DNA of 64,000 nt, taken from contig OY253679.1 of assembly GCA_958009085.1 (NCBI GenBank), positions 186,001-250,000 of the forward strand, read 5' to 3'. This document shows positions 1-64,000 of this stretch, piece after piece. The first letter of the stretch is position 1, and each line of letters opens with the position of its first letter. The position numbers and the translations under genes were made by a program. Under the pieces are notes generated by a model. It saw only the letters and a list, made by a program, of their open reading frames with translations, made no database searches and was not told the DNA's origin. Source of the stretch: Protoeuglena noctilucae. Taxonomy: Eukaryota.

Positions 1-3000
1 CCACCCCTCCACCCACTGCCTCTCTCACTCCCCACCTCCCTCCCTCTCAATCCCATCACCCCACCCCACCCCACCCCACCCCCCCTCACTCCCCCCCCTC
101 CCTCTCCCCCCTCCTCTCCCCCCTCCCCACCCTCTCCAGCCACATTGGCTTCCCCCCCACATCCGAGTGACCCCCCACCCCTCTCTTCCCAATCGCTGAC
201 AAACTCTCCTCCAATTGCCGAGCAAACTGCTGCGTGGCGCTGCTCTGGTGGTCGTGGCTGGGGGGGATGACCTGGGGTAGACAGGGATGTGTGTGGATGG
301 AATGAAACCATACTGTTAATTTGAAGTCAGTAACACTGCAGTGGCTAAGACAACCACCCCCACCCCCACCCTCCCTCACCATGCCCCCCAGGTTCATCGC
401 GTTTGCCGCCTTCGCCTTGCTCTTCTTCTGTTCCGATAGCCTCGACTGGGCATAACTGCGAATATTCTCCGTCTCAAATGCGATGCGGAATCTCTGGCGG
501 GCCTCGCGGGTGCAGGAGATGGCGCCGGTAGTGAGGTCGACGCGGGAGGGGGTGAGCTGGGGAGGGGCGAGAGATGGGGGGCATTGATGCTATATACAAT
601 GTAACCGATCATACCAGTCACTCATTCTATTACCAGTATTACTATCATTAGCAGTCCACCACTCACCACCACCTCCGTGAGATGCGACACCTTGAAGCCC
701 CGGTCGGACATCAGCCACCCATCACATCATCACCATAACCACTATAATTTATCATCATAATTATCATTATCACCACCCCTCCATCCCCACTCACCACCAC
801 CTCCGTCCGATGCGACACCTTGAAGCCCCGGTCCGACAGGACGTCGATCAACACCTCGCACGCCAGCGGCTGGTCGTCCCAGAACGGGGCCGTGCTGGTG
901 TATTCGAAAAACCCGGCCAGCGACGATTTCAAAACCCCCGGCAGCACCTCCTCTTCAATGACAGACACCACTTGGTCCAGCAAAGGGCGGTGGTCGGTGT
1001 AGTAGCGGTCCAGCCGCTGCACCAGGCTCTGGCGGGACTGCATTGGGGAAAGTAAGCAATATCTTTGAGTGTAATAGATATTATATGTTTGAAATGTTTA
1101 ATAGCAATAGCGGTCCAAGCGCTGCAACAGGCTCCGAGAGGACTGGGAGGGAGGGGGGGACAGGGAGGAAGAGATTAGGTTATACTATGATTATAATTAC
1201 TATAATGGTTAACACAAAAGATCTACATTACTAAATATTTTATATTTATACAATATTTATAACATTTATTGTTTAGGTTATGATACTATGATAGCACCCC
1301 CCACTTCCTTGGCCAGCGGCAGGTGCGCCAGCGCTCAGTAGGTCCGTTGTAAGTGACAACCATTACATATGACAGTATAATAACATACATTCACTATAAA
1401 TATAACACCCTCACCTTGGTGACCACTTCCTTGGCCAGCGGCAGGTGCGCCAGCGCTCGGTAGGTCCCCTCTAAGAGATCCAGGGAGCTCTGGTATCGTA
1501 GCTCTTGCGCAATTTGCTGTTGGCACGACTCCAGGGATCCCATGGCGTCGATCAGGCAGAAGGGGAAGTGCTGGGGGGTTGGGACAGGGGTAACAGGTGA
1601 TACGTCATAGCTATAACATCTAAAATTAAGTGATAGTAAAAGTAAATCAGTAACAAACGATAATGACATAAAATAACAAAGTAAAGTGATACGTGACCAA
1701 TAGATACCACCGCGTCTCGCCTGCATGAGCCTCAGCAGCGTGCCGTAGTGCTGCTCGAATATCAGGCACCAAACAGTCACATGATTCATAGATAACATGA
1801 CCCATACATACAACACCGTTCTCTCGCCTGCATGAGACGTAGCAGTGTCCCGTAGTGTTGTTTGAATATCAGGTACCGCTGCTGGGCCTTCTCTATGTCC
1901 ACGTCCGTAGCACGAACCTCCTCTGAGGAACAAAGCACGATAGTAAATGGTGTCAAGAAGAATGTTCTTATAAGAAAGAAGGCAACCAAGCATCATTGGA
2001 CAGACATCCACACGCAGCTTGTTAGGTATTATTTTAATTATCACCCACTCTTACCCCACCCCACTTCACACCCACTCACCCGCCCTCCCCACCCCCGCAT
2101 CCAATATGCGCCGGTTGCGTTCGCTCGCCGACTGTGCCCTGGCCGTCTGCCGCTTGATCGATTCCTGTTCATCAATATACAACACAACCACTTTGAAGAG
2201 CGGGCGGGGGTAGCGACTCAGGTCGGGGAGGCGCTTGTGTTGCTGGGGGGAGAGGGATGGATGGGGTGGGGTTGTGGGTGAGGTGGGTGGGGTTGGTTGT
2301 GTTGATGAAGAGTAGTGGGGTAGTGGGTGGGTTAAGTGCGACTGCACGGCAGCTTCATCAGGTCTGCCAAGAAATTCATCATCATAACACACATTGACAT
2401 CTCGTCGTCTCACCTCGTGCACCTCCATCATGCGGTCGTAGAGCAGCTTCAGCAGGTCGGCCTGGAAGCTGGTGCGTGGGTACCCGTCGACAATCAGGCC
2501 GATGTTGTCGGCGTCGGGGGCGGCAAAGATGGCGTCCAGGAGCACGTCCAGGACCAGCTGGTCGGGGATCTGCGAGTGATGATGTGGAATGAGAAGGAAG
2601 CATCACTATCTGTGCTCAAGATCATCATGCTTACTCGTACAGCACACACCTGTGCGCACGCGCACACCTGGACACCCCCCCTCTGCGCAAGCAACCCTGA
2701 ACCACCACCAAACGTCACCGCCACCCCCACTGCCACCCTTCCTCTCATCCCCACCCTCAACGCGCCACCCTTCCTCGGTCCCCCCATCATCACCCCCTCT
2801 CACCAGTCCCCCCGAGTCCTTAATCGCCTTCAATTGATCGCTCCCGTCCAGCAGATCGCTCATCACGACCGCCCGCGACAGGCCGCGGATCTGCAGCACG
2901 TACGACGTGTGCGTGCCCTTGCCCGCACCCGGCGCCCCGTTCAGCCACACCACCTCCCGCGGAAACACCAGGCGGTCCCGGCCGTGGCGGTCCTGCAGCC

Positions 3001-3570
3001 GCTGCCACGCGGCCTCGAAGAGAGAGACCGCCTTGGGGTCTGCGAGCAGTGCGATGGTTGCAAGTGATAAGGGCGAGGAGGGACGGTCATGGTGAGCGTG
3101 ACTGCGACTCATAGCGGCTTTGATTGCCGTGATAAAGCAGGTGGGAACGACAATCGATTAATGATGAAACGATATCCATTGCGGGGCGGCGGGGGACGCG
3201 CGCGCTGCGCCGGGCGCGGGCCCTGACCTACGTCTGGGGCATGGCGCTTGGCGTCCGCCTCCGGAGGGCCGATGAACTCCGCGGGCACGCTCTGGAAGGT
3301 CACGCCGGAACCTGATGAATACGCGCGTGAGAGCTGCGCGCCGGATGGGCCGGCGGCCGCGGCGGGCGGGCGGGAAGCGAGGGCGGCGTCGACCGCCGCG
3401 CGCGCGGACGCGGCGCCGCGCGGGAGCGAGTTGGAAGAGACGCTCTCGAAAGGATGCCGCGCTTGGGTCGCGTGAAGCGAGCACGGCGCGCCCGGAGACC
3501 CAAACACTGCGCCGGACTCGGTGTCTCGGATCCCATGCGCCGGACCCTCCGCGCGTCGCGCTCCGGCCAT
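1..3570 (-). CDS. Atypical adenylate/nucleoside monophosphate kinase with C-terminal extension, multi-exon; 3' end probably runs off the window
   Basis: Spliced exons give P-loop VWLNGAPGAGKGT (about 2910-2955), LIVDGYPRTSFQA (about 2460-2500), FKVVVLYIDEQESIKRQ, LIDAMGSL and ELRYQSSLDL. Approximate exons: 3570-3227, 3039-2806, 2569-2414, 2243-2091, 1924-1828, 1571-1415, 1037-795, 557-380, 272-180. First exon is Ala/Arg/Ser-rich like an organellar transit peptide. Confidence 0.85.
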
Positions 3571-7470: not shown

Positions 7471-9451
<1,981 letters not shown>

Positions 9452-9889: not shown

Positions 9890-12800
9890 ATGTCGATGAA
9901 CCTGACCCCTTCACCTCGGCTATCAGCCACAGAGACGACGTTCACGATCGTCAATGTCGCCATGGGAGCGGGTGCGTTGCTTTGCTGCAGGGCGCGTCGC
10001 TGCGCGTCACTGGCGCGTACCGAACACCGAGGCCGCGCTCCCCGGGTCGCTGCGACGCGAGACGGAGCCATTAAATGCGACGCATCTTCCATCCCATTCC
10101 AATTCTCCGTCCGATCCCCCCGCGGCCGCATCGACGCCCTGGTGTACGTGCGTGACTTGCGAACGTTTCCGAAAAACACAACCGCCGCGCTTCGTCCCCC
10201 GCAGGGGTCCTCGGATTCCCCTTCTGCTACCGCACGTCGGGATGGGTGCTGGCCTCGGCGATGCTCCTGGCCGTGTTCGTGGCTACGATGTGGTCGCTCG
10301 ACTTGCTGCTGCGGTGCTGGAAGTGGACGGGCGGGCGCGCGCAGAGTTTCGAGGAGGTGGCGCACGCGGTGCTGGGGCCCAGGGGAGACCTCGTCGTGCG
10401 CGTCTGCGTCGCGCTGCAGAACACAGGTGAGTAAGGGGCGGGGGGCAGCGAGGGGCGAGGGGTGACTTGGGGCACACCCCACCAACCACAGTGGCTGTCC
10501 TGGTCGCCTACCTCACCATCGGCGCTATCATCCCCAGTCCTCACTCTATGCATCCACCATTACCACCCCCAGGTGCCCTCGTGGCCTATCTCACCATCCC
10601 CACCCCTCACTCCCATGTGATACACAATCGTAATACACAATCGCGATAACCACCCCCAGGTGTCCTCGTCGCCTACCTCACCATCGTGGCCGACATCCTC
10701 TCCGCCGTCGCCGGCACCGTCGTCCCGCCCGGCGCCGAGCCCTCCCGCAACCTGCTGATGGCAGGGGTCGTGTTTCTGGCAGTCATGCCCCTGTGCGTCG
10801 CCGTGGGCAGGGACGGCGCGGAGCTGCTGGGGGCCGTGTCGCGGGCCAGCGTCATTGCCGCCCTCGCCTTTGCGGGGGTGGTGGGGGCATACGGGCTGAT
10901 GGGTGAGGGAGGGGGCGAATACGACTGAGGGTTCCATGATTGCTTTGCTTGTGATGTCTGTTGTCATGCCGATGTCGGTGGGTGATGATGGTATTTTCAG
11001 CGTCATTGCTGCCCTCGCCTTTGCGGGGGTGGTGGCGGCCCACGGGCTGATGGGTGAGGGGTGAGGAAAGAGAGATGGGAATGGAATGATGTGTTGTCTA
11101 TCGCTTATTGTTATCCTTTCTTGTTCTGTCCGTGTCGTGTCATGACCCCTTCACTGCTCTCCTTTACGCCTGCACATCGGTATTGTCACTGTTACTAATA
11201 ACCAATAACTGATATCAGCAACTACATCATCACCCCGAACGACACCCCAACACTACCCCCCGTTCTCTCTCCCTCTCCCCAGGCCCGGAGAAGGGCGGGG
11301 GTCCCATGGTCGCCTTCGATGCGGACGGCATCGGTGTCACGTTTAGCGTGATGGGGTTCGCCTTCGCCTGTCACCCCGGCATCATTCAAATCATGCACGA
11401 TCTCGACAGGAACACGCCGCAGAGGATGGCAAAAGTGCTGTCGAGGGCACTGGTGAGGGGAAAGGGGTTGCAAGTTAGACGATAAGAGAGTGCAACCAGT
11501 TACTGGTGAAGTAATTTGATTACTGTGATTTCCTATTTTTCTATCAACCCCCCTCTCATCCCACTCAGTCCCTCTGCGCCGTCATCTACGCCCTCGTCGG
11601 CCTGGCCGGCTATGCCCTCACTCCTCCCCTCAATCACGCTACCAACACTAATCGCCAACCCCTCACTCCCCCTTCCCACTCAGTCCCTCTGTGCTGTCCT
11701 CTACGCACTGACCCCCATCCTTACCATTACCAGCACTCTTACCAACACTATTACCACCCCCCCCCCCCCCTTTCCCACCCCAGTCCCTCTGTGCTGGCCT
11801 CTACGCCCTGGTGGGCCTGGCCGGCTACGCCCGCTTCCGCGACCGCACGGGCGGCGACATCCTCCGCAACTTCGGGTCCCCCGGCTCCCCCCCGGGCGTT
11901 CGTGCTTTCGAGCACGGACTGAAAACGTGCTTCGGGATGACGGTCGTCGCCAGCGCGCCGTCGTTGCTGATTCCACTGCACGACACCCTCGCCCCCGCTT
12001 TCTTCAAAAAGAGGCCGCCCACACGCCGGCAGTCGCGGATGCTGATTGCTGCTATCGTGCTGGCGTGCTTCGGTGAGGGGCACGGGGGGAGGTTTTTGGG
12101 GGGAGATGTGGGGTGTGTATGAGTGGTCTGGTAATGATAAAAATGTATTTAACATGTATATTTTATAATATGGTTATATTTACAATAATTGTACAGTAGA
12201 TATTATGTATAATATAATACTATATTATCAACACTCTTTTATCCTCCAGGCATCGCGGTGGTGGTCCCGAACGTGGAGTTGATATTCAGCCTGACGGGGT
12301 CGACGGCCAGCGTGGCCATTAGCTACCTCTTGCCCAGCCTGCTGTTCCTGCGCATGTCGAGGAGGAAGGGGGACGCGGGTGAGAGTTACAGTTGTAGTAT
12401 TAATAGTGATACTTATAGTAATAGTAATACTTATACTTGAGGGAGGGGGTGTTGTAGGGTGGCAGTGGGGGTGATTGTAAGGGTGGCAGTGGGGGTGGTA
12501 GTGAGGGTGGCAGGGGGGGTGGTGAGGGTGGCGGTGGGGTTGGCACTCAGAGCATCAACACCCCACACCCCTCTCACCCACACCAACACCCCACACCCAC
12601 ACACCCACACCCCTCGCCCCCCACCAACCATCCCAGGCAAGATGACGGCTTTGACCAAGGACCACGAGAGCGGCCCCATCGACGACTCGAATTCAAATTT
12701 CAGTAACTCCAATTCGAATTCAAACACCCTCCCCGTCACCCCCTCGGCAAGCCTGCACGCGTGGGACACAGTGCCTCGCCTGCGTTTGAAAGCGAGGGCA

Positions 12801-15797: not shown

Positions 15798-16220
15798 GGG
15801 CGTGGACGGCTGTGCTTTGTGTGGCGGAGCTGTGGTGCGGCTCCTTAACAACTGACTATATTAATATAATCACAAGTTATTTACTTATCGCTGTCTATCT
15901 CCCATAGAGTCGCCCCTTAGGTTTTCAAAGATGGGTGTCTGAACAGGCACGGAGAGGGCCATGGAGGGGCTACGGTCGACATGACCAATCGATTTGAAAA
16001 TCGGAACAGAATGTCGACATAAAACACGTATGCTTTACACAGCAGTGTGTTGAGGTGGTGAAAAGAAGTCACAAGGCGACAAGGCGGGTGGCAGGGCATG
16101 GCACATTGCCCATCTCCCTCCCTCGCCACAGCACAAAACAGTCTCTCAATCAGCTCTTATTAGCAGCTAAGCAGAGGCAGTACCTCACTTAGCTGTAATG
16201 CATTGTATTGGAGAAGTCTC

Positions 16221-26400: not shown

Positions 26401-29400
26401 CCCACGGCCGCAACGTGCTGTGGCCCCGCCCGCCGGTACAGCTGTACCCGTCCGGCCACAGCCCCGCGCATCTGCGTGTGGAGACGGCTTTGGAGAAAGA
26501 GGAGAGGGCGAGGGAGGAGGAGCGGCGGCGGGTGCTGGCAGCGGGGAGCGCGGTGGTCCCTCGCGCCCGTGCGCTATCCCGTGGGCCCAGGCGGCCCCTG
26601 TCGAGCGCGAGCCAGTGAGTGGGGGTGTGGGGAGGGTAGTGGTAGGGTGGTGGGGAGAGGGGATGTGCAAAGGGTGGCGAATGCGATCGCATTGACATGG
26701 AGTGAGCACCGTGAGTGTCCGGCGTAACTCTTGTAGTGAGACCATTTTGTATCGTCACTGCCTTTCTTCTCCTCACCCCCCGCAGTGCCTCGGTCAGCAG
26801 CAAGAGCCGGGCCGACCTGGGCAAGGCGAGGAGCTTAGCAGGCGACCACGCATCGAGAGTCGACAAGGGCGATAAGGTCGATAAGACCAAGAGCCAGAAG
26901 GTGGTGGCGCCGGTGGCAGTGGCAGTGGCTGCGGCGGAGGATGCGCCTGGGCTGAGGGAGGTGCGGGGGGGGCAGCGGGGGGCTCATGCGGAGGCGGAGG
27001 CGGCGAGGGGGGCGGTGGTGCGGCTGGGGGCGTGGAGGGCAGGTGAGAGGGTGCGAGGAGGGTGGTGGGGGAGTGGCTGGGCAGTTGTGAAGGTGGGGGT
27101 GAGGGTGTGGGGGGTGGCAGTAGGGGGGCTGGGCAAATGTGAGGGCGCTGGGGTTGCAATGCAGGTTACACAACACTCGTATGCAAACCCCTTTCACGCA
27201 GACCCTCCGCCACCCAGCACCGACGCGGCCCCTGGGGCTGCGGAGGAGTCTTCACGGCGCCCGTCGCTGTGGCAGCCCCGCCACCCCTACTGGCGGGACA
27301 CACTGCGGGGGCTCAACTGGGACGACGAGCCGCGCATCACGCCCGGGGCGATGGTCGAGGTGAGATGCGGTGATGATCCTGTGTGGCAAACGCATGCCCC
27401 GCCATCTCGGCACCACACATCTCGTGCTTCACAACTCACCCCCAGCCGCCTCATGTCTCATGTGCAGTCTGCATGATAGATCAACAATTAATTCCTGCCC
27501 TCCCCCAGCGCTGCGAATTTCTGGACCTGGTCCCCAGTCACGTCATCTCTCATATACCATGACTATAACAGAACAACAACCAGTATACTCCCTCCCCCCA
27601 GTGCTGCGAGTTCCTGGGCCTCGTCCCCAGTCACCTGGGCGTGCGCGACGTGAGTGCGTGCTTCCACGCCGCCGCGCGCCACCTCCGCGGCCGCGCGTCG
27701 CGGGGGGTGCCCTGCGCGACCAGCCCCGCGGGACCGGTCCTCGACTACGGGGGATTCCTGGACTGCCTGGGGAGGTGCTTCGTGTGCGCCATGGTGAGCG
27801 TGTGAATGACTGTTATAACACACTTGGGACTCATCGCCGTGTCACTTTTGTTGTATTCATCCACACGTTCCCACGCACCCACTGACCAGCACCCCTCTCT
27901 TCTCTCCCTCTCTCCCCCTCCCCCTCCCCCACCACTCACCGACCCCCATCCCACACCTCACTCTCTCCCTCTCTCCAACTCCCCATCCCTTACCTCTCTC
28001 CCCCACCCACCCACCCACGCAGGCCCCCACGGACCCCTTTCTGAGTTTTTTCCTCCTCGGTGGCGACTGCCCCCTCCCGGGCGCACTGAGCGACGCTTTA
28101 GAGACCCAACTCACCGCCGCCATGCGACGATCCGCACCCAAGCGACCTGCCACCACCGCCACCTGTGGGGCCAGGGACCGACCGAACGGGCCCGGGGCTG
28201 CGCTGGCGATGCGCCGCGCCAACGAAAGAGCCGAGAGGGTGGCGCCGGGGGCTGGCAGGGGGGGCGGGACCGACGCGGGGGGACACGCCGCCGCACGGCG
28301 CAGCGTCGGGTCTGTGGGGAGGTGAGGAGCTGTGCGTGCGTGCGTGTAGGGCGAAGCGGGGCTGACCATTATACTTTCACATGTCTCCTTGTATCGCCAT
28401 CTGACTATTGCACTTGCTTGGTGTACGCCTGAGCTCCCCACATCACAACCCCATCCCTGCACTTGCCCGGCGTCCCCCGCAGTCGCCTGGGCTCCCTCCC
28501 CGAGGCCGAGGCGGTGCGTGCTCTGGCCAAGGACCTCCACGATCAGTGGGACGCGGTGACCAAGCCGGGGGGCAGGAAGGACCCCATCTTCGTCGATCAC
28601 ACGGCGGAGAGGGTGTTGCGGGAAGAGTACATGCCACAGGTGAGTGATAGAGAGCAGGGGTGAGGGATGGAGTAGCATGTGTGGTGCGGAAAGAATACAA
28701 CTCTTTCACAGAGTATTTGCTCCCACCCTCACCTGCGCTTCCACTCCCGCCTCAGCCCCCTCCACTCCACTCACACCCCCACTGACCCTGCCACCTTAAC
28801 CTCACTTCCATACCCACTCCCATGCCCCTTTCAGAAGCCCCAACCCACAGGCACCACCCCCACTCAACCAACCACATTAATCTTCCCTTCACTCCCCTCT
28901 CTCCCCTCAGAAGCCCCAGCCCACGGGCGCCACGACCTGGGGCACCTTCGGGGGCATCGTGCCCGGCATGCGCCCTCAGGAGGAGACCTTCCTGGTGTGG
29001 GTCAAGGACGAGTGGAAGAACCTGGGAGACGACCCGGAGTTTCGCATACAAAACGGAATGTGGGTCGAGGACCCCTCGTTCAAGTGAGATGAGAGCGTGG
29101 CGAGCGGACGGGAGCGTGTGGCTGGCACCGCGTAGCTGGGTCGTTGGGGTCGCGCCGGGCGCGTCGTGCAGGTTGTATTCTTGCATTTTTTGCGCAGCTG
29201 GGCGCGAATGTGCCGATCCGCGCGCGCAGGGTGGGGGGCAAGGAGCTGCCGGGCCGGCGGGCGCAGCTGCTTCGTGGCTTCGAGGAGGCGGTGCGGAAGG
29301 CGGTGCGGTCGGCGATGGACCTCACAGGGCTGGGATCGGAGGCGGCGTACGATCTCTGGGGCGCCCTGGAGAAGCACTCGAGGGACGGGAAGGCGCACGC

Positions 29401-47079: not shown

Positions 47080-50000
47080 ATGGCCCTCGCCGCGGCCTGC
47101 TCCCGCGCGTACGTGCAGGTGATCATTCACTCCACATAGACTTATCTGCTGCCGGGGCCCACGCTGATCACGCCTCCGTGCCCGCACGGCTGCTCAGCAA
47201 TGCCGTTTCTCCACGCGAGGGGGCGGTGCATCTCCGGACGATACGCATTCACACCAAATGGGTGCCGCTCGGATGTCATGGTTTCGTTTGCGGAGGGGAG
47301 AGTGTTTTGGAGATGCAGCATTCGCTCCCGGCGCTGCTGGGCTCTGGAGGCCATGCACGTGCGAGCGCCGCGATCGGAGCCCAAACGGAGCTTTCTGGTG
47401 GCTTCCTTGATTGCGACTTGTATCTACAGCGACATTTTTGATTGCATGGAGCTCCTGGAATGCGCACGCCGCCTTCCGCGCCCACCACAGCGGCAGATAT
47501 CTCGCCAAACATCTGAAGGGCCCCCGGCGCCCCCAGTCCGGCGGATCAGCTCGCATTGCGTCTCAATTTCAGCTGCCGCTGTTTCTCGCAGGAGCGCGTC
47601 GGCGCCCGCCGCCGAGCGCTGCCTACCGTGGTCGGGGCGCGCCTGCCGTCCCCACCAGGCACTGCCCTTTTCGCCGCGCCGCGCGCCGGGCGCCCTTCCT
47701 CGCGGCGCCACGCTGCGGCCGAGCAGCTCGTGACCGAAAATGAGCGCACGACGGCAGGGGCAGGCGAGAGCGCGCGGCCCCGCGGCGCGCGTCTGTGGTG
47801 CGTCTCCACCCACATTTGCGTCGCTGCCGCGCGCCCGCTGGACGCTCCTCTCCGCGCCTCCGTCGCACGCAGAGCCCAGCGGCGATCCCTGGCGCGACGC
47901 CCCGTGGAGCGGCATGCAGTGGACGGTCTACCGCGGCAAGGCCTACGACCTCACCGGCTACCTCGCTTCGGGCCGACACCCGGGCGGCCAGTGGCTGCTG
48001 CGCCTGGCGATCAAGCGCGAGGCGACGGCTCTGTTCGAGTCCTACCACCTGCGCCCCGAGGTCGCGGCCGCCCACCTCCGCCGGCTGCCTGAGATCCAGG
48101 GCTTCCCCATCAACGCCGTGCCCCCGTCCCCTCGCCCCAACGACTCGGAGCTCTACAACGCCATCCGCGAGCGGTGAGGACGAACGAAACGCATGTGTTG
48201 CAATGTAACTGTTGACAGCGAGAACGGTCATGGGCGTGAGGCGCCGCGAGGTGGCGGGAAGGGAGGGGATGCGGGTTGACATGCGGCGGGGTGTGGGTGC
48301 TCGCCAGCGGTGTTGAGAGCGCGCCCCTGAGGCCGCGTTGCGATCTCCGCGCCGCAGGGTGAGGCGGGAGGTGTTCAAGGGGGAAGACGCGAGCGGGGTG
48401 CACCGGTCCGGGACCGAGGGCGCTGCTCTGGCGGTGCTGGGGTACGCGGCGCTGGCGTGGGCGGCCTACTACGCCTCGCCCAACGTGCTCACGGGCGCCG
48501 CGCTGGGGCTGGCGGGGGCCTGGATCGGGTGAGGCGCGGGGTGGGGGGGAGCGGCCGGGGTGCGGGTCGTGTGGGAGGGTGGCAGTGGTCTCCATACCAT
48601 AAGGCAGGATGGAGGGCGTCGGTTCAATGTGTCAACTTTCTCTTAGCCACCCTTCCTGTGATGCTTTGCATAGACCCTTAGAGTACGCTCACCGTTACCA
48701 CGCACCCCCCCCTGCTCCTCCTCCCCCAGCCTGACGGTGCAGCACTGCGGCAACCACGGCGCCATGTCGACCAACGCGACCCTGAACGCCTTCTACGGCC
48801 TCTGCGCTGACTTGACGGGGGGCTCCGCGCTCATGTGGCGCTACCACCACCAGGTCTCGCACCACATCCACTGCAACGACGAGGCGTTCGACGAGGACGT
48901 CTTCTCGGGTGAGTTGTGTTCTTACAATGTATGACTCGAGTCATCCAAACCCGACATGCACGGCTCGTGGAGTGCTGAAGTGCTGGGGCTAAGACACTCG
49001 CACCCTTGCATTGACCACTTCCACCCACTCTCCTGCTGCACACTCGCACTCTCGCACTCCCCCTGTCACTCACCTCACCCCCTTCATCTGTCATCCCTTG
49101 GTGCCACCCGCAGCCCTGCCCTTCTTACGTTTCGACCCCCGCCTCGAGCGCAAGTGGTTCCACCGCTACCAGCACCTCTACATGTGGCTGATGTACCCCT
49201 TCCTGCAAGTCGTCTTCCAGATCGGGGACTGGAAGGCGAGCAGGCCTGGCTCGGAGCGTGCTGTGTGTTACAGCTGCAGGCATGCCGATGTTGCCGATAC
49301 AAATACGCCGGTGTTACAACCACAAGTATGTTTCTGCCAAAAACATTAGCGTGCTGGTGCAACAATCGCAAGCATGACTTGCCATTAACATGACACTACC
49401 AGTACCACCGTCACATCCTCCTGCACGCAGGGCCTGCTGACGGGCCGCACCCCGGGCGCCACGCTGTACGGCGCCAGCCAGGGCGAGCGGTGGTCGGTGG
49501 TGTTCGGCAAGCTGGCCCACTACGCGCTCCTGTGGGTGCTGCCCGTGGTGGCACACGGCTTCGGGGCAGTGCTGCCCGCTGCCCTCGCTTACACGGCCAT
49601 GCAGGCGAGTGGGGCGGTGGCTGTGCATGTGTGCGTGAGCACGACATGCTCACAAGCGGGAGTCGGGCGGCAGCTGTGTATGCGTTTGTGAGCAGATGAG
49701 AGGGCGCGTGGGCGGTGGCTGTGCATGTGTGTGTGAGGGCTGATCGCGCTCCTGTGGGTGCAGCATTAATAAGGGTTTGGCACGACACGCATACCAAGTC
49801 AAGTTCGCAGGGCGTCATGCTCAGCACCGTTCGCCGTGTCCCATGTCACGTGTGCTGTGCTGTGTATGCAGGGCATCGTGCTGAGCACCACCTTCGCCGT
49901 CTCGCACAATCTGGAGGAGAACAAGCCCAGCCAGGGCAGGGCGGGGAGCGTGCTGGACCAGGAGTACATGGAGAGGGACTGGTGCCTGCAGCAGGTGAGG

Positions 50001-50659
50001 GTTGATGATGATGGTCAGTGGCATGGCTTGTTATATGAACAGTGCATGGAGAGGGGTTGGTGCCTGCAGCAGGTGGGAAGCGTGGTGGATGAAAGTTACA
50101 TGGAGACGAGTTGAATCAACTGACCCACTCACTGCTGATTGGTACAGAAAAAGGCTCTAAGGCCCTCCTTCAACTGAACATTCTCCACTTACTGTTAACC
50201 ACAACTACCACACATGCCTCGCCCGCAGATCCAGACGTCGTCCAACTGGGGCGGCGTGGTGGGCAACTTCTTCACCGGGGGCCTGAACCTGCAGATCGAG
50301 CACCACCTCTTCCCCGCCATTGCCTTCGTGCACTACCCCGCCATCGCCCGCATCGTCCGCGACGAGTGCAAGAAGCGGGGGGTCGAGTACGCCCACTACG
50401 ACACGCTGCCGGAGATCCTGGGGCGCTACGTGAGGTACATGCGGGACGTGGGGACCCAGGACGTTCCCGAGGGGTGGAGGCGCATGGAGGACGGGGCCTG
50501 GGGGACGCGGCAGGTGACTGGCTTGGCTGGGGGGCTGTGCTTGGCTTGGTTTGAATGTATGAGAAATGCAGTAGGTGATTGGCGACTGGCCTTAAATTGT
50601 TACGTGGCTTGATCGCGTATAGTCCCCCTTTCTCGCAGACCGCCCTGAGCAAGCTCTGA
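47080..50659 (+). CDS. Cytochrome b5-fused front-end fatty acid desaturase, most like the plastid MGDG Delta-4 desaturase of Chlamydomonas
   Basis: HPGG heme motif, His boxes QHCGNH, WRYHHQVSHH and QIEHHLFP, plus AVPPSPRPNDSELYNAIRER and TFAVSHN. Transit-peptide-like exons 47080-47118 and 47592-47763; last exon TALSKL-TGA ends at 50659. Confidence 0.9.
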
Positions 50660-51076
50660 GGTTTCTGAGGCTTTGGAGGTTCACCGTCGCGATGCCAGTG
50701 ATGAGCTCGTGATGAGCGGGAGCTGATGACTCGATTGAGGAGGTGCGAGGCCCGCTTTATGTCCACCAGTGGGCGACAAGGCCCAGTAAGTGTGTCTGCA
50801 TGACGTGGTCACAGCATTCGGCGTCAGCAAGATCTGAAACAGTCTGCTTGACCCTGTATGCCGTGGCGGGTGACCGGATGCTCCTACGGGGCAACGCTAG
50901 CTTAAGCGCTTTAGGATTGAACAGACAGATGCATTTATATGATGCACAGACGGCCGCAAGCCGCACAGCCACCTTCCTTGTTTGACAGCGACTATGCAGC
51001 CACCCCTGTGCTTCACAGCCACCCTCACTGCAGCGCCGCAAGCAGTTCCGCTGCCCTCTATGCCATGTAACCACCA

Positions 51077-54000
51077 TCACTGCAGCGTGGCGAGCAGCTC
51101 CGCGGCCCTGTGCTCGACCGCGGCCATCGCCTCCATCGCTCGCACCACGCCACTGTCCATCGCGTCATCCGCGCCCGCCTCCTCCTCCTCCCCAGCAGCC
51201 ACCTGGGGGTCGAAATGACATGCAATATGTTCATTAACGAACATACTTACAACTGGCAGGTGTTCAGAAGCGGCATTGGCTGTGCACCAGCGCGCGACAC
51301 ACGCAGTGGGGCTCTGCTACTATTGCTGGCTGTGCCCCTCCACCCCTCACCCACCCTCGCCCCCTTTCACCTGCACCCCATTCCCCATCCACCCCCTACC
51401 CCTCACCTGCACCCCATTCTCCTCCGCCCCCCAGCCGTCCCCCGCCAGCCCCAGCCGGCCCGACACGGGCGCTGGGGCCGCCTCCACCGCCGCCCGCGCC
51501 GCCCCCACCGCCGCCTCGAGGTTTCTGGCAGCGGCGTCCACGTCGCCTGTCTCAAGCAGCGTCTCCCCCAGCAGCAGCCGCGCCTGGGGGTCCTCCCGGG
51601 CCCGCAGCGCCCTCCGCAGGGCAGAGGCCGCTTCTTCATAGAGCCCCATCGCGATGTACTGCCTGGCCACCTCCACCAGCACCGAGGCGTCGGAGAGGCC
51701 ATACTTGAGGGCAAACCTGGGGGGTGGGGGTGGGGTTTGGGGGTTGGGGTTGGGGTTGATTGACACTCATACAGTCACAGTCCAGTGCTTATCTTAAACA
51801 CTCCATGCCGCTGATCATCTAAAACACGTGAATCGCATGCCACTGCCCACCCCTCGTGTCACCTGAGGCACTCCCGTTGCCACCACCCATTGCCACCCCA
51901 CCCCGCATGTCACCGCCATCACTCCCATTGCTACTTCCGATTTACAACACGCTCATCGCATCCCACTGCCCACCCCTCATGTCACCTGAGGCACCCCTCT
52001 GCCTCGTCCCTCCTCCCCTGCCGCAGATGCACCGCCACCATCCACCCCCACGCCACCGCGTTGCGATCGTCCATGATGTTCGCCTGGGCCAGCGCCATGT
52101 CTGCCTTGTCACAGGCCCCGGCCAGGTAATGACCTACACCCACGCGCTGCCAGACCGTGCTGCACGGGGCGACCTTGCAGGCCTGCAGGGATGTGAGTTG
52201 TTGTTTTATGCGAGGTGGAGTGTGTGAGGGGGACTGGGTGAGATGGTGGCGCTGGGTGCTACCACTGAGGCAAAAAGGTGGTGCCTTCTGCAGCACGTTA
52301 GCATTCTTTATCCAACCACAACACCCCATCTAACAACACCACCCTCTCTCGCCTTCTGCAGCACCGTGAGCGCCCCACATCTATCCAACACCCCCCAGCA
52401 TGCAACCCCTTACTTATCACCCACTCGCACCTTCTGCAGCACCGTGGAGGTTCTCTACTATGCACTTACTTACTCTCTGCTTACTATTTACCACCCACTC
52501 GCACCTTTTGCAGCACTGTCAGCGCCCCCTCCTTGGACCCCATGGCTTCCATGGCGTCGGCCAGTCGCAGGAACACCGTCAGAGAGCAAGCGGACGCATC
52601 ACGGTTGACGGCCACCAGGTACTGCTGGCACGCGCGGCGCATGTGGCCGGCGCTGTGGTACACGTGGCCCTTTAAGATGTTGGGGCGGACGTCAGACGGC
52701 TGCGGGGAGGGGGTGTGGAGAGGGAGGCGTGTGATGTCGAGGAGCGTGATGTGAGAGGGGTGTGATGTTGGGGGGTGGGAGAGGGGTGTGATGTGGGAGG
52801 GAGATGATGTTAGGGGTGCAAGAGGGGTGTGATGTTAGGAGGGGGTGTGGCGGTATGCAAGGTGTGCTGATTACTCTTGTACATACTATCAATCGAGTTA
52901 TCCGATCTCATAGTCTACCAGTCCCCAATCGACTGCCCCCACCCCCCAACCATCCAGTCCCCCACCACCTCACCATCGCCCCCCATCCACACACCCCCCC
53001 ACATACCCCACCCCCCCCCTCACCTCCGCCATCTGCCCCGCGCGCCTCGCCGCCGCCAGCGCCTCCTCCCGCGCCCCCCGCAGCAGATACGCCTCCGCCA
53101 GGCACAGGTTGGCCGCCACCACCGTCGACCTACCAACCGGCTCCCCCGTGCCAAGCACCGTGTTCTTCGACCCCCCCACCGGCCGCTCCGCCTCCCCCTC
53201 CACCCCGTGCCACTCCGCGCCCTTCCGTTTCGCCGCGCCGAGCAGCCCCAGCGCCACAGTGGCAAGCGCGAAGTCGAGCGCCTCTTGCGCCGAACGCACA
53301 AACGGGTCGCGCTCCGCCTGGGCTGCCTGGGCGTTCGAATTCGAACTCGCATCCGGGTTTTTGGAATCGGGGTTCGAATTTGCGACGTTCCCGGCGCTCT
53401 CCTTGGCCAGTCGCTTTGCCTCGTAGACGGCGTTGCGAGCCTCGCGATCGCGGGAGGGGCCCTGGGCCACGAGGATGGCAGCCAGCACCGCCCAGTCACT
53501 CGCGAGGGGTTGAGAAGTGGTGGTGGTGTTAATGGATGTCTTCTTGTTAGATGGTGCGTGGCTGGGGTTGAGGAGCTGGTGGGCGATGGCCTCCGCGTGA
53601 CTGCGGGGAGGGGCGGGGTGGGGGTAAGGGTGATGAGGGGCGGTGTGGGTGGCGGGGGGTGCATGGTGATATCGGAGTGTGGCATGTTAGCAAGCGGATG
53701 CCAGCACAGTGCACAGCTTGCAAGCAGAGGGTGCAAATTGTAACCAAACTGCCGTAAAACAATACCACATTCCCACCCCATGCACTGCCCCGTCTCACGT
53801 GAAGCGGAGGGGGTCCGTGGAGTGCCCCAGGTCCATCAGCACGAAGCACAGAGCACGGAGCGCGTCCTCACGGCCCGGGGAGATCTCCAGGACCTTTTTG
53901 AGGGCCTCGGAGGCGCGGCGGCTGAGGTTGTTGCGCGCGCTGCGATGAGGGGCAAGAGGAAAATATTTAGAGGAATCTTGATGGCCGATTAACGTCGCGA

Positions 54001-56804: not shown

Positions 56805-57199
56805 GGTCGTGTGGCAAGCCCACGCAGCGCAGCGGTGGCTCCGCCGACGGGCGGGAGTCCCCGGTCCGGGTTGCGCCTTTTGGGCCACAGGTCTCGCGCC
56901 CTTCCACTAGCCCGGTACCCTGGGATCGCACGGATGCGACGTTTCTCACGACGCGTCCGCCGACTGCTGCAAACGACGACGAGCGACGAATCCGGCGCGC
57001 CAGAGGCCCCGCATGTGAGCGACGTTTCGCTTGGCCAGCGAGGGCTTTCTTCGCAGGTGCTATCGAGTATTCAAATCGCAGAGGAAACCATGAGCGCTGC
57101 CGTCAATCCCACCGGCAGCGCAGATGGGTGGTGGTGGGCTGATTGGGCGAGCCCGCACATCACTGTCAATCCTAACCAGAGCCTCGGCACCGCTCCTCA

Positions 57200-58828: not shown

Positions 58829-60049
58829 GCTCTCCCCCTGCGTCGCCCGGGTGGCGTACGTGGGGCGGTTCGACGGGTGCAGGTGATCCTGTCCGGGAAT
58901 CGGAGGACTCAGCATTGAAAACGTGAATCCTCAGACCCTTCCCCGCGCAAGCCTGCGACCACTCTGCGGGCGGGGGGACTGGGGGGCGCCGTCGCCCGCA
59001 GAGGACCCTCACGCGCTCCGTTCACGCAACAGCGGGTCTGAAGTCGCCGGTGGTTGACGAGATGGGCGAAAGGAGCGGCGCGCAGGCCCGGTCGGAGCTG
59101 GACAGGGGGGGTAGAGGAGAAACGCCGCTGTGGGCCCGAAAAGGACGGGGTGGACGCTGGGTCGTCCCGTCTCCGAACACGACGGCGAAGACGGAACCAC
59201 GCGCGGCGCGGGAGGGGGCGAGGCGGGGGAGCGGGGCCCCGAAACCCATCCGGAGTTCGGGACGGGCACCGGGCGGGGCATACGCCACTGCAGCCGCTCC
59301 GTTCGCCACAAATACACAGCGACGGAAAAAGTTTCGGGGCCGGGACGGCCTGGCCATGCTCCGCCACGGGGCCGGCAGTAGAAACTCGCCTGACGACGCG
59401 TGGAACCCCACGCCTGCGTCCCTAGCGCTGAGAGCAGCAATCCATTCACGAGGAGCGCGCGGGGAGAGCCACGGTGAGGGGGAGGGGTCGGCCTGGTGAC
59501 GGTCGCGGGCCCAGATTCGCCGGGAAACCGATGAGCGCGAATGTCGTTTGTGACATGAACTGGCGACGGCCCTGTTTGAGCTGGCGCTCAACGACCCCCC
59601 CCCGAAACGCCAGTTGGGTTTGGCTGTTGACGACATTGCCCAAAACGGCGCTCGGCGCGTGATTTACGCGCACCCCCACATCGCCAGGCGCAGCGTCGGG
59701 ACGCGAGGGGAGGGGCCAGGTGGCCATTCGCTGCATCAGCAGCTGACGCCCTGAGCCCCGTTGAAAGCCCAGCGCGCAGCGGGGCCTAGCGGACCTGCAG
59801 GGCGCGCTTGCAAATCGATAGGATCACCAGGCGTCGTCTGGCTGCCAATCCGGTCGCGCAGGTGCGGCTGGGGAATGCTGTTGCATGTTGCGGTAGCGTC
59901 CTTCCTGTTCCCGATAAGTGCCGCGCGTGGCCGGGACCCGCTCGACTCGCAACTCATCAAACTTCCCCCTCCGTCTCTCGGGTGGACCGCAGGTCCTCCC
60001 TCGCGACGTCGTTGTGGAGTCTTTTCTCGGCCTGACCGCGCGCCACCGC

Positions 60050-63000
60050 ATGGCCTCCGAGGCCGCGCCATCGCCACGCCATCGAGGTTCGAAGGGCCGA
60101 GTGATACCGTTTTGCGACCGCGCTGGATCCCCGCGCAGCGCCCGGAGGGATGGACGCCACGTCGGGCGCGGGCCGACCGCTTTCGGCCAAACCGTCCACC
60201 AAGGAGCTCGCGCTGATGGAGGACAAGCATGCTGAGCACACGAGTTTCCTCTTCCGCCAAACCGCGCCGGGCGTGCCCCCCTCCGTCGCCTGCCTCGGGC
60301 AAGTGCAGCGATGCACCAGCTGCGCCTGTTGGCCGTTATGCTTGGCCGTGCTTAGACACCTGCCTACGCGAGCTCGCGCGTTGCTTCCGCAGATCGGCGG
60401 AGGACCACCGGAAGCTGGGTTTGCAGCCCATGCGAACCCTCAAGCTGGTGAGTTGTGACACGGCAGTGGGCATGCATTGATACGTGACGTGCCCCTGCAC
60501 TCCTAGCCACATCCTTATGACGCTGTGACAATCCGCATAGCTGCTCCCCGTTGGTGCTCCCAATCGGTACTGCCAATTTTTGCCTCCCAATCAATGCCCC
60601 ACATCGTTGTTCCCAGGGCGTGCAGTATGCCGGCGTGGCCAACCGGGTGGTGAGGGCGGCCTTCCGCGACGCGGGTTTTCGAGTGGTCAAGGGCAACAAC
60701 TGGAACGTGCTGTGGGGAGCCGCCATGGCACCCGACGAGTACAAGGCGAGGGCCGGGTGTTGGGGGACAGCGAGCGTGTTGTTGTTGCCTCTGTGAGTGT
60801 TGGCGACCTAGCACCTGCAACCAAATTACAAGAGCGCGTCGCCACCGCACCTACTTCACCCCCAACCCTCCCTCGCTCACCACCCCACCGCCCCTCTCTC
60901 GCCACCCCCCTGCAGTCCGTCGGCCTCTTGCCCTACCAGCGCCTCAACCACTTCCCGGGCACCTGGGAGCTGGGCCGCAAGGACAAGCTCTACCGGAACA
61001 TCGCCAAGTTTCGACGCCTCCGTGGCGCCGACTTCGATTTCGTGCCGCGCTTTTTCGTGCTCCCGGACGACTGGGACTCGTTCCGCAACCACGTGTCGCG
61101 CCACCCCAACGCCATGTACATCCGGTGAGGATGCTGCGGCGCGAGATGCGGCATTGAACACTGCGATGCAGCTCCCCGTTGCAGCGGGGGCTGTGGTGAT
61201 GGGAGCGACCCCAGTCTATCACCCTCTACTTTCAAAAGCAGCATCAGATCCTGGGAAAATGCAATAAAATATAAATTGTCAGTTATTTCTTAACTCGATC
61301 TCGCCCTTCGCGCCCCGCAGCAAGCCCCTGGCTTCGTCCCGTGGGCGCGGCGTTCGTATGGTCACGCGCCCGCTGTCCCTGCCGAAGGGAAAGGAGATGT
61401 TGGTGCAGGAGTACGTCGCGGATCCTTTGCTGATACACGGTCACAAGTTCGATCTCCGCATCTACGTCGCCGTCGTGTGCCTCGACCCCTTACGGTGACC
61501 GCCACTGCCACTGGCTATTAACATCGTGCTGTCATGTCCACACCCCAGGACCGTACCCTGATTTACCTCCATGCCACGCCGTGCATTCTTCACAGCGCAC
61601 GCACCCTTCACCCATCCCTACACCCACCCCTTCATACACCTACCCTCAACACACCCACCCACCTCCCGCCCCCCTCCCCCCCACCCCCGCAGCATCTACG
61701 TCTATCGGGAGGGCCTGTGCCGCCTGGCCAGCGAGCGCTATTCGAAAGACCCAAAGGACCTTCGCAAGAGGGGCGTGCATGTGACCAACTTTTCCATCAA
61801 CAGCAAGCTGGTGGGCGAGAGGGTCGGTGGGGCGGCAGCAGAGGGTGCGGCCTTCACGCTGCTCACGCGGGGCGGGCCCGCGGGCGAGGCGTCTATTAAT
61901 GCTCGGAGTAAGCTGGGAAGGGAGCGGAGTGGGAGCGAGGGGTCGACAGCAACACGGTCGTCATCAGCTACCGTGGCGGTGGGTCATGGTGGGGGTCGGA
62001 GTGGGGGCTTGGGTGGGGCCGGGGGTGCGTCCGGGCGGCGGGGGTGGTCGCGCGGGGCCGCGGGGCGTCTCGCGGGGTTAGACGAGGGTGATGAAAGCGA
62101 GAGTGGCGAGAGCGACGGTGATGACGACGAGGGTGTCAGTTTGGACAGCGAGGATGAGGGGGGCAGTATCGGGAGCGAGGGGGAGGGGAGTGACGGAGAG
62201 GGGGGGTGGGAGGAGGTGGGGGGTGCGCATGGGGAGGTGGGGGCAGGCGGGGTGGCGAGAGGTTGCGAGGAGCGCACTACGCCCGACCAGCCAGGCGTGA
62301 CGGACCTCAAATGGTCCCTGGGGGAGCTGAAGGGGTACCTGAGCAAGCAGGGGTACGACTGGGAGCCCGTGTGGGAGGGCATACTGGATGTGGTGGTGCG
62401 TACGGTGCAGGCTGCCGAGCCTCGCATGAACGCACTCAACCACGTGCACCTGCCGAGCCGGCTCAGTTGCTTCGAGTTGTTTGGGTTCGATATCATGCTC
62501 GATTCTCGGCTCAAGCCGTGGCTCATCGAGGTCAACACCGGGCCCAGCCTGGCCGCCACCGCGCCCCTGGACCGCGCCATCAAGTTCCCGCTCCTGAGGT
62601 GAGAGTCATATGCGATATGCATCCTGTTATCACAAATGCTGATACTCATATCAAGTTCCCGCTCCTGATGTGAGGGGAAGGGGTGATGGGCAATCTATTA
62701 TCTACTACATTGCAATGGGCCATATTTCCAAATAATATCGAGCTCCCACTCCTCAAAATGTGCTGTGTTCGTGATCAACAAAACGTGTTCCGTTCCCATG
62801 CAGGGACCTCCTCCACCTGGTGGGCGTGCCGGCGACCAACAAAGCACGATACGTGGCGGCACAGAAGGCCGAGCAAGAAGCACGTCTCACGGGCATCACC
62901 CGAGCGGTCAGCGCGCGTGGTGCGGTCGGCCGGGGGGGTGACGCACCGGGCTCTAGCGCCGCGGGGCAGGGGTCGCGCCGCGAGCGGCCAGTGCTGGTGC

Positions 63001-64000
63001 AGGCGGCGTCGTCGCGCATCAACCGCCGCACGGTGGGGGAGGCCAGCGCCACGGACTTCCGGGGCGTGTTGCCGGAGGACCTGCCACTGTCCATCAGGTG
63101 AGGGATTAGTGATGTTAGTCACCGTCTGATGCTAGTCATGCTTGTGACTTCCGGGGGGTGCTACCGGAGGACCTGCCTTTGTCTATTAGGTGAGGGATGC
63201 GTAAGATTTGTGATGCTATGCTCATGAAGAGCAACCTGCTTCGTAGGACACTGACATGCCACTCCCGCAATCATTGCCAACCTCCGTCCCGCCCTATCGA
63301 CACCAGTGCTCAGCACACTCATACCACCCTTCACCCCACCCCCTCGCAGGGAGACGGAGGCCGAGCACGCCCGCCGCGGCGACTTCGTCCGCGCATTCCC
63401 CAGGGAGGACGACCCCGACCGCAACCATGACCTCTTCGACACGCCGCGGTACGAGAACGAGCTGGTCCGCGCGTGGCTGCACCACAAGCGGGGCCTGCTA
63501 ATGCGGTATGGCACGGTCGACCCACGGGAGCTGCCCAGGGGGCACCCGGACCGGGTGGCCACGAGGAGGGCGATAGGTGAGGTGCTGTGTACGAGTGGAG
63601 ATGAGAGAGGGGTGGCGATGTGCAGGGCGCTTGGTGAGGGTTGCGTGCACTGGGTTGAGATGTGCTAAGAGTGAGTTTACATGTGAGGGGCGCAGGGCGA
63701 CCAACTCATCACTGACTCATGTCACTACACCTAAGTGTTCTCATTTAATATACAACGTGCATGCTCTCCTCATGCCTGCAGGCTGCCCCCCCAGCCCAGG
63801 CGCCCCCGCCTCCCCGTCCCGAGCATCCAGCACCACACACGGCCCATCATCGACCGCCACGACCCTCGCGGCGCCCATGCCAGCGCCCGCCAGCGCCGAC
63901 GGCACCGCCCGGAGTCGCCAGGCATCAATCACAACGCCGAGCGTCGCACGTGACAGCGCAGACCACATCGGCATAACACCGCCGTCAGAACCCCAACCAC
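60050..64000 (+). CDS. Tubulin-tyrosine ligase-like polyglutamylase (TTLL4/5-like); start approximate, runs off the window
   Basis: [123 protein letters not shown]. Confidence 0.93.

What the first reader, a model, noticed from the sequence alone, without database searches (positions are those of the whole stretch)
661..63198. Window-wide 'exon echoes': intronic copies of exon ends plus splice site that keep the encoded peptide
Seen: at least 6 unrelated genes (adenylate kinase, transporter, large unknown gene, desaturase, CFAP70, TTLL) carry 20-60 nt direct copies of the first or last codons of an exon, usually with its AG or GT/GC splice site, 70-220 nt away in the adjoining intron. I count about 15 junctions, some with 2-3 copies. 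Exon-start echoes lie upstream and exon-end echoes downstream. The echoes normally lack the second splice site or the frame needed to act as cassette exons, yet many differ from the real exon mostly at synonymous sites while the flanking intron is far more diverged. Established: a neutrally decaying copy should mostly accumulate amino-acid-changing differences. Inference: junction-spanning tandem duplications may keep exchanging with the live exon by unequal crossover or gene conversion, so every copy feels coding selection. Alternatives are copying from a divergent allele during repair, or use through non-canonical splicing or DNA-level deletion between the repeats. I do not know a described system with this signature; it could be a route to intron elongation, sliding or gain.
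Basis: partly seen in the sequence, partly recalled or inferred. Interest (0 to 1): 0.85.

Follow-up and report, generated by a model that had tools for sequence, protein, structure and literature searches.

The report
Decaying junction-spanning tandem duplications in introns
About one splice junction in ten in this GC-rich marine alga has a nearby intronic copy of the exon end plus its splice site; these copies are most likely leftovers of small tandem duplications that lengthened the introns and are now decaying, not a new selected system.

Summary
Short direct copies (20-63 nt) of exon starts or ends, usually with the AG or GT/GC site, lie 52-222 nt away in the adjoining intron at about 15 junctions of 6 genes. 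At score 20 or more, 16 of 178 junction ends have one, against 0.2 expected by chance. The echo-bearing stretches laid are letter-identical in DNA contigs of a cultured organism and, where covered, of an ocean metagenome, so no assembly artefact. RNA contigs splice at the exon-proximal sites and skip the two echoes they cover.

In 7 of 14 testable pairs the spacer is also homologous to the sequence beyond the echo, so whole 50-220-nt units were duplicated head to tail. Echo-bearing introns are about one unit longer.

The "peptide-keeping" reading is not supported. One copy is a live exon that accepts only synonymous changes, so the neutral expectation is dN/dS about 0.5, not 1. I observe 0.34 (32/374 non-degenerate against 32/127 fourfold sites), not significantly below 0.5 (P=0.09). 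Echoes also carry a stop codon, frameshifts and 30 replacement codons.

Verdict: ordinary decaying junction-spanning tandem duplications, unusually frequent here. A minor role for gene conversion is not excluded.

The parts
787..838 (-). Adenylate-kinase-like gene: exon end plus GT donor (exon ends at 795), source copy
   Evidence: ADK Pfam hit on neighbouring exon 2411-2578
659..710 (-). Echo of that exon end plus donor, 128 nt downstream in the intron, 49/52 identical; spacer homologous to the flank beyond the echo
   Evidence: 0 of 113 null windows reach the score
1108..1145 (-). Echo of the AG acceptor plus exon start at 1037 (source 1003-1040), 105 nt upstream; 2 synonymous and 3 replacement codons
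1301..1356 (-). Intronic copy of exon-interior piece 1423-1478, without a splice site; 4 replacement codons including an in-frame TGA
1691..1770 (-). Echo of exon end plus GC donor (source 1795-1877, exon ends at 1828), offset 104-107; 5 synonymous and 2 replacement codons; the echo has G/C at third positions where the exon has A/T
10481..10598 (+). Two echoes (10481-10533, 10562-10598) of the AG acceptor plus exon start at 10660 of the amino-acid transporter gene; a three-unit array with periods of about 78-87 nt
   Evidence: (family D11)
10998..11060 (+). Echo of exon end plus GT donor (source 10847-10909, exon ends at 10902), offset 151, 59/63 identical; has an AG in front and a GT behind, making a 53-nt frame-shifting pseudo-exon that my gene finder mis-called as an exon
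   Evidence: (D14)
11559..11710 (+). Two echoes (11559-11617, 11673-11710) of the AG acceptor plus exon start at 11784
   Evidence: (D8); Aa_trans Pfam hit
27498..27541 (+). Echo of the acceptor plus exon start at 27602 (large unnamed gene), period about 92 nt; whole unit about 73% identical
28831..28857 (+). Echo of the acceptor plus exon start at 28911, period 76-81 nt
49807..49843 (+). Echo of the acceptor plus exon start at 49872 (front-end desaturase), with a 2-nt deletion; lies inside the RNA-confirmed GC-AG intron 49605-49871
50041..50075 (+). Echo of exon end plus GT donor at 49994; lies inside the RNA-confirmed intron 49995-50228 and is absent from the mRNA contigs
51019..51057 (-).
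51817..51921 (-). Echo of exon end plus donor at 51986; mostly the intronic part of the unit, with several indels
   Evidence: (D18)
52341..52445 (-). Two echoes (52419-52445, 52341-52376) of exon end plus donor at 52505; both echoes share G where the exon has A at two third positions
   Evidence: (D12)
62650..62674 (+). Echo of exon end plus donor at 62598 (TTL-family gene), offset 71
   Evidence: TTL Pfam hit
63146..63198 (+). Echo of exon end plus donor at 63097, offset 92; 6 synonymous and 0 replacement codons, the most 'peptide-keeping' case
   Evidence: (D15)

Best explanation
The echoes are relics of small head-to-tail duplications (units of about 50-220 nt, two or three copies) that happened to span an existing exon-intron junction. 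Such a duplication is harmless. The copy that stays contiguous with the exon body keeps its own splice site, the spliceosome goes on using that exon-proximal site, and the second copy (exon piece, splice site and intron piece) simply becomes extra intron. The intron grows by one unit per event. Afterwards the intronic copy decays neutrally by substitutions, and the purely intronic part of the unit also by many indels. The live exon copy changes only synonymously. That asymmetry alone produces 'mostly synonymous' differences and makes the exon-derived part of the unit the longest-recognisable part. Shown here: the repeats, their excess over chance, their presence in the DNA contigs of two separate sources over the stretches laid, whole-unit homology, use of the exon-proximal sites in RNA at two junctions, and the length excess of echo-bearing introns. 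Inferred: the mutational mechanism (replication slippage or unequal exchange), neutrality of the echoes, and the reason for the high frequency (a genome rich in short tandem repeats with short introns, so that a 100-nt duplication often spans a junction, while duplications inside exons are removed by selection).
For: Direct repeats only: 29 local direct pairs and 0 inverted. 16 of 178 junction ends carry an echo at score 20 or more, against 0.2 expected. Arrays of three units at 10481/10562/10649, 11559/11673/11772 and 52341/52419/52493. The spacer between copies is homologous to the sequence beyond the echo, on the side the tandem model predicts. In 7 of 14 testable pairs, 0 of about 100-170 same-gene intronic windows reach the observed score; 2 more reach P 0.025-0.031. 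In the alignable spacer pieces identity is 66-92%, overlapping the 81-96% of the exon-derived parts. The rest of the spacer is lost to indels. Divergence is 32/374 at non-degenerate sites and 32/127 at fourfold sites, a ratio of 2.94. That fits the expected 2 (P=0.09) and rejects 1. G/C and A/T sites at codon positions 1-2 diverge equally (20/218 against 17/186). Of the 19 third positions where the exon has A/T, 11 differ, 10 of them with G/C in the echo, as expected if many synonymous differences arose in the exon lineage. Disabling changes in echoes: a TGA stop, a 2-nt deletion and indels. RNA contigs of two runs join 49604 to 49872 and 49994 to 50229, skipping the echoes. Echo-bearing introns have a median of 268 nt against 174 nt (12 against 58 introns, P=4e-5), a difference of about one unit. 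Tandem genomic duplication within genes is an established class (passages of PMC3443670 and PMC2891723).
Against: The fourfold/non-degenerate ratio (2.94) lies above 2. The codon-count test gives P=0.003-0.014 without a GC-to-AT mutation bias and 0.10-0.21 only with a 2-3-fold bias, and one search shows no such bias at positions 1-2. So a modest residual deficit of replacement changes in echoes cannot be dismissed. A few pairs are strikingly synonymous: 63097 has 6:0, and 51081, 52505 and 63097 together have 13:1 (chosen after the fact). All 18 echoes that reach the junction keep GT/GC (10 of 10) or AG (8 of 8). At 8.6% per-site divergence I calculate that this has a chance of about 0.04. No pair shows a young whole unit: the most similar exon-derived parts (94-96%) sit beside spacers that align only in pieces. 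In 5 of 14 pairs spacer homology is not significant, though those spacers are short (24-50 nt). Exon bounds outside 47.5-50.7 kb come from my own crude gene finder, not from RNA. The intron-length comparison is biased, because longer introns leave more room to detect an echo. Only one 64-kb window was available.
Confidence: 0.72

Rival explanations
1. The duplicated exon piece keeps exchanging with the live exon by short-tract gene conversion or unequal exchange. The echoes are therefore homogenised and indirectly exposed to coding selection.
For: The exon-derived part is 81-96% identical, while most of the spacer is unalignable. The ratio of 2.94 is above the neutral 2. The codon test gives P=0.003-0.014 without mutation bias. 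18 of 18 echo splice dinucleotides are intact. In pair 1423/1301 a 36-nt identical block abuts a diverged block.
Against: The deficit of replacement changes is not significant against the proper null (P=0.09). Echoes carry 30 replacement codons, a stop and frameshifts. The most synonymous pairs are also strongly diverged at synonymous sites (7 differences in 42 nt at 63097). Conversion frequent enough to pass selection on to the echo would erase that divergence; this step is inference from population genetics, not computed here. Alignable spacer pieces are about as similar as the exon parts, so indels rather than homogenisation can explain the contrast.
Confidence: 0.17
2. Some echoes are not tandem duplications. 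They are long target-site duplications made when a staggered double-strand break near the junction was filled in and joined with filler DNA (X-filler-X').
For: In 5 of 14 pairs the spacer shows no significant likeness to the flank beyond the echo.
Against: Those 5 spacers are only 24-50 nt long, so power is low. 7-9 of 14 pairs do show the homology that tandem duplication predicts. The spacers are not related to one another, and only short 13-18-nt matches to other parts of the window were found.
Confidence: 0.08
3. The echoes are kept because their splice sites are used: as decoys, as poison exons that trigger mRNA decay, or as recursive splice sites of the AG|GT type.
For: All 18 echo splice dinucleotides are intact. 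Echo 10998-11060 has both an AG and a GT and would add 53 nt. Several exon ends finish in AG before GT, so their echoes look like ratchet points.
Against: The RNA contigs covering two echo-bearing introns show only the exon-proximal junctions, although contigs drop rare isoforms. Offsets show no preference for multiples of three (6 of 19, my count). There is no conservation evidence beyond the marginal dinucleotide count.
Confidence: 0.03
4. Assembly artefact: two haplotypes merged into one sequence.
For: The copies differ mainly at third codon positions, as alleles would.
Against: Contigs built separately from a culture (X4, one 36-kb contig) and from an ocean metagenome sample (X6) carry the echo regions with 0 differences and 0 gaps; one of the two may be the source of the window. 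Spacers are unique sequence. Synonymous divergence of about 25% is far beyond allelic levels.
Confidence: 0.01

Closest known systems
Internal (intragenic) tandem genomic duplications that include exon-intron junctions. Class reviewed by Yenerall and Zhou 2012, PMC3443670 (passages read). The primary survey, Gao and Lynch 2009, is not held and is only recalled.
   Same: Head-to-tail local duplication inside a gene. Splice-site sequences are duplicated. The coding sequence is unchanged because splicing removes the extra copy. Unspliced or mis-spliced forms would carry premature stops.
   Different: Here no new intron is made. An existing intron is lengthened and the duplicated splice site lies idle. 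The frequency (about 1 junction end in 10 in this window) and the multi-copy arrays are higher than I know from those reports (recalled, not checked).
Intron gain by tandem duplication of an exonic AGGT proto-splice site. Rogers model; Hellsten et al. 2011; Lehmann et al. 2010, PMC2891723 (passages read).
   Same: Same mutational event class and the same size range. The same reliance on duplicated splice signals, with mRNA decay as a backstop.
   Different: In that model both copies are exonic and the new intron runs from one AGGT to the other, so the intron ends echo the flanking exons. Here the duplicated unit already contained an intron boundary and intron sequence.
Tandemly duplicated mutually exclusive or cassette exons
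   Same: Similar sequence blocks in tandem that keep the peptide.
   Different: Echoes are partial exons with one splice site. They are not in frame as insertions and are absent from the RNA contigs.
Introner or transposon insertions with target-site duplication, and break-repair insertions with long target duplication
   Same: Direct repeats of exon/junction sequence flank extra intronic DNA.
   Different: The spacers form no element family and show no terminal repeats. In most testable cases the spacer is itself part of the duplicated unit.

Membership tests
Junction-spanning tandem genomic duplication | Copies in direct orientation and close together | tested here: met
   29 direct and 0 inverted local pairs; offsets 52-222 nt
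Junction-spanning tandem genomic duplication | The whole unit is duplicated head to tail (the spacer is homologous to the flank beyond the second copy) | tested here: met
   7 of 14 testable pairs exceed every same-gene intronic null window; 2 more at P 0.025-0.031; 5 not significant with short spacers
Junction-spanning tandem genomic duplication | The mRNA is unchanged because the exon-proximal splice site is used | tested here: met
   RNA contigs of two runs at 2 echo-bearing junctions; the other 13 junctions were not covered or not shown
Junction-spanning tandem genomic duplication | The extra copy evolves without coding constraint | tested here: inconclusive
   Fourfold/non-degenerate ratio 2.94 against an expected 2 (P=0.09); stop and frameshifts present; codon test P=0.003-0.2 depending on mutation model
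Mutually exclusive or cassette exon duplication | Each copy is bounded by both an acceptor and a donor and is included in mRNA | tested here: not met
   Echoes carry one junction only, except 10998-11060. RNA contigs skip the two echoes covered
Introner or transposon-derived intron sequence | The inserted sequences belong to a repeated element family with terminal structure and short target duplications | tested here: not met
   19 spacers share at most 8-11-nt words with one another and only 13-18-nt matches elsewhere in the window. Genome-wide copies could not be searched because no genome is held
Intron gain by duplication of an exonic AGGT | The new intron is bounded by the two copies of one exonic proto-splice site | tested here: not met
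   The duplicated units contain pre-existing polypyrimidine-AG or GTGAG/GCGAG intron sequence, and the echo sites are not the sites used

The most novel reading that the evidence does not exclude
The exon-derived parts of the echoes are not free. Short-tract gene conversion with the live exon, or weak selection on idle splice sites, keeps them and their GT/GC or AG intact long after the rest of the duplicated unit has dissolved. Introns of this alga would then hold a standing reserve of near-functional exon ends and splice sites that can feed intron sliding or new isoforms.
Probability: 0.15. Interest if true: 0.6.

Novelty: new member of a known kind. Interest (0 to 1): 0.25.

Why it matters
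It gives a measured picture of how introns grow in a GC-rich marine alga. Small tandem duplications across splice junctions are recognisable at about 10% of junction ends, and echo-bearing introns are about 94 nt longer at the median, roughly one unit. It corrects a tempting inference: when one of two copies is a working exon, mostly synonymous differences are expected, and the right neutral benchmark is dN/dS of about 0.5. It also flags an annotation hazard. Echoes look like coding sequence with good splice sites, and my own gene finder called one as an exon.

Tried and rejected
Whole genome: not held, so the genome-wide test could not be run.

Orthologous loci for polarising changes: two metagenome-contig scans. 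The transporter exon found no relative. The desaturase exon found 80 loci, the best at 68% amino-acid identity, so none from the same species. As a rough control, 70 of those 80 loci had no local direct repeat at score 20 or more, and the other 10 had 20 pairs between them. Most are probably prokaryotic, so this says little.

Transcript-derived proteins, to see which copy is in the mRNA of the kinase gene: two searches found no hit.

Tandem Repeats Finder: 240 rows. All 150 rows shown have periods of 57 nt or less; 90 rows were not shown, so the tool was uninformative for the echo units.

Spacers as a mobile-element family: rejected.

A simple GC3 segment scan and longest-ORF frame assignment were too noisy and were replaced by a small dynamic-programming gene finder. 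Its first alignment run gave self-matches where the flanks overlapped and was redone. One row (pair 1795) had a wrong register and was corrected.

GC-to-AT mutation bias as the explanation for the third-position excess: not supported, because G/C and A/T sites at positions 1-2 diverge equally.

Earlier notes for this genome: none.

RNA cover of the echo sites in the 51-59 kb gene and the TTL gene was too thin, or was not among the rows shown.
Full report
WHAT THE WINDOW IS. The window is GC-rich: 52-72% in 2-kb bins. It is packed with short exons and short introns. Pfam finds adenylate kinase, an Aa_trans transporter, an aminotransferase, ankyrin repeats, a cytochrome-b5/fatty-acid desaturase and a TTL-family ligase. 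No whole genome is held.

Public runs of a cultured 'organism A' hold the test stretch completely. Ocean metagenomes hold 0.93-0.97 of its words, and metatranscriptomes about a third, as expected for exons only. RNA contigs laid on 44001-64000 define the desaturase gene. Its exons have GC3 of 0.93-0.98, its introns are 59% GC, and 3 of the 9 spliced junctions are GC-AG. This resembles what is reported for the haptophyte Emiliania huxleyi: 65% GC and a majority of GC donors (PMC4028052, passages read). I did not test that identity.

- Local direct repeats outside low-complexity sequence, at score 20 or more: 29 at offsets of 40-400 nt. Six control offsets gave 7, 2, 3, 1, 1 and 1, and there were no inverted pairs.
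- To test junctions without hand-picking, I wrote a small gene finder trained on the RNA-confirmed exons. It recovers those exons.
- I then aligned 178 junction ends (60 exon nt plus 12 intron nt) to their adjoining intron. 16 reach score 20 (0.2 expected from permuted pairings), 20 reach 16 (1.2 expected) and 23 reach 14 (2.0 expected).
- Of the 27 printed alignments I dropped 10 as G-rich low complexity, very short, or indel-ridden. That leaves 15 junctions in 6 genes, four of them with two echoes, plus three copies of exon-interior pieces.

It is not an assembly artefact. One 36-kb contig from the culture run, and four contigs from a separate metagenome sample, carry the echo regions they cover between 48.5 and 64 kb with no difference and no gap. 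Echoes in 1-30 kb were not checked this way.

HOW THE ECHOES AROSE. Orientation is always direct. Several sites hold three units in register. The decisive point is whether only the exon piece was copied or a whole unit.

For each pair I compared the spacer between the copies with the sequence just beyond the echo, on the side a head-to-tail duplication predicts. The null was all intronic windows of the same gene.
- In 7 of 14 testable pairs, no null window reaches the observed score.
- Two more pairs are at 0.025-0.031.
- Five pairs, all with spacers of 24-50 nt, are not significant.

So whole units of about 50-220 nt were duplicated. The spacers are not a repeated element family.

RNA contigs from two runs join 49604 to 49872 and 49994 to 50229. 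These are the exon-proximal sites, and the echoes at 49807-49843 and 50041-50075 stay inside the excised introns. Echo-bearing introns have a median of 268 nt against 174 nt for the rest (12 against 58 introns, one-sided P=4e-5). The difference is about one unit. One caveat applies: longer introns leave more room to find an echo.

DO THE ECHOES 'KEEP THE PEPTIDE'? The raw pattern exists. In 21 in-frame comparisons (648 nt) there are 44 synonymous and 30 replacement codon differences, and 49 of 87 differing bases are at third positions.

One copy is a working exon that can fix only synonymous changes. A neutral echo therefore predicts twice as much divergence at fourfold sites as at non-degenerate sites, a dN/dS of about 0.5.

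In 19 independent comparisons, 32 of 374 non-degenerate sites and 32 of 127 fourfold sites differ. The ratio is 2.94. A ratio of 1 is rejected (chi2 20.9), a ratio of 2 is not (P=0.09), and my rough 95% interval for dN/dS is 0.22-0.53.

A codon-count simulation gives P=0.003-0.014 with no mutation bias and 0.10-0.21 with a 2-3-fold GC-to-AT bias. G/C and A/T sites at positions 1-2 diverge equally (20/218 against 17/186), so I cannot lean on that bias. A small residual deficit of replacement changes therefore remains possible.

Where the exon has A/T at a third position, 11 of 19 sites differ from the echo, 10 of them with G/C in the echo. That is what exon-lineage synonymous change predicts.

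Echoes are plainly not protected reading frames:
- The copy at 1301-1356 has four replacement codons including TGA.
- The echo at 49807 has a 2-nt deletion.
- The echoes at 10481 and 51921 have indels.

THE 'FAR MORE DIVERGED FLANKING INTRON'. This is true to the eye. The exon-derived parts are 81-96% identical, while global alignments of the spacers look about 50-65% identical. But the alignable spacer pieces are 66-92% identical. Most of the contrast therefore comes from indels, which the live exon cannot accept and which end the detectable echo when they hit it.

WHAT REMAINS UNEXPLAINED.
- A few pairs are strikingly synonymous: 6:0 at 63097, and 13:1 for the three donor echoes at 51081, 52505 and 63097. 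These were chosen after the fact.
- At 1715-1770 and 52341-52445 the echo has the G/C-ending codons and the exon the A/T-ending ones.
- All 18 echoes that reach the junction keep GT/GC or AG. I estimate a chance of about 0.04 at 8.6% divergence, uncorrected and favoured by how the alignments were found.
- No pair shows a young unit that is similar over its whole length.

These points keep occasional short-tract gene conversion alive as a minor contributor. I doubt the stronger claim that conversion transmits coding selection to the echoes. Exchange frequent enough to do that should also erase the roughly 25% divergence seen at fourfold sites. That step is inference, not computation.

COMPARISON WITH WHAT IS KNOWN. 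Tandem genomic duplication inside genes, duplicated splice sites and mRNA decay as a safety net are established themes in work on intron gain (PMC3443670; PMC2891723; PMC2809761; passages read). The primary survey by Gao and Lynch (2009) is not held, and I cite it from memory only.

The present case differs from the classical AGGT model. No new intron is created; an existing intron is extended and the extra splice site lies idle. It is not exon duplication of the mutually exclusive kind, and it is not introner-like.

That break-repair route may account for the pairs without spacer homology.

My four literature searches found no paper describing such echoes at this frequency in a haptophyte. 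The searches were narrow, and subscription papers and supplements were not seen.

VERDICT.

Noticed in passing
47764-47872, 49236-49430, 49605-49871: Three of the nine RNA-supported introns of the desaturase gene use GC-AG, with donor consensus G|G[T/C]GAG. This is an unusually high share of GC donors, like that reported for Emiliania huxleyi (PMC4028052).
   Followed up: partly
10966-11053: My gene finder called the echo at 10998-11060 as an exon: it has a coding-like composition, an AG in front and a GT behind, and a 53-nt core. Echoes are a likely source of false exons and false alternative splice sites in annotations of this organism.
   Followed up: partly
12400-16750: About 4 kb of strand-asymmetric low-complexity sequence. 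It is G-rich with 12-, 24- and 36-nt periods (GGTGGCAGTGGG-like) up to about 15.8 kb, then C-rich from 16.3 kb. It is open in several frames. Whether it codes for a repetitive protein or is intronic or intergenic satellite is unknown.
   Followed up: no
41360-42320 and 45065-46300 (minus strand): Two neighbouring gene segments encode near-identical peptides, for example the same 13-residue stretch at 41359-41397 and within 45064-45138. They look like a local gene duplication. DNA contigs show alternative joins (44132 to 44772; 46156 back to 44001). RNA contigs over 45121-45184 and 45908-46025 carry many differences, as if they come from a paralogue.
   Followed up: no
1-2400: The first 2 kb is much less GC-rich (52%) than the rest. 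Introns of the kinase gene are only 27-39% GC, and one of its exons (about 1828-1929) has many A/T-ending codons, unlike the GC3 of 0.93-0.98 in the desaturase gene.
   Followed up: no
49612-49639 and 49710-49737: A 28-nt intron-intron direct repeat (27/28 identical) inside the same intron that also holds an acceptor echo and a copy of an exon-interior piece (49745-49764). This one 267-nt intron has been hit by several local duplications.
   Followed up: partly
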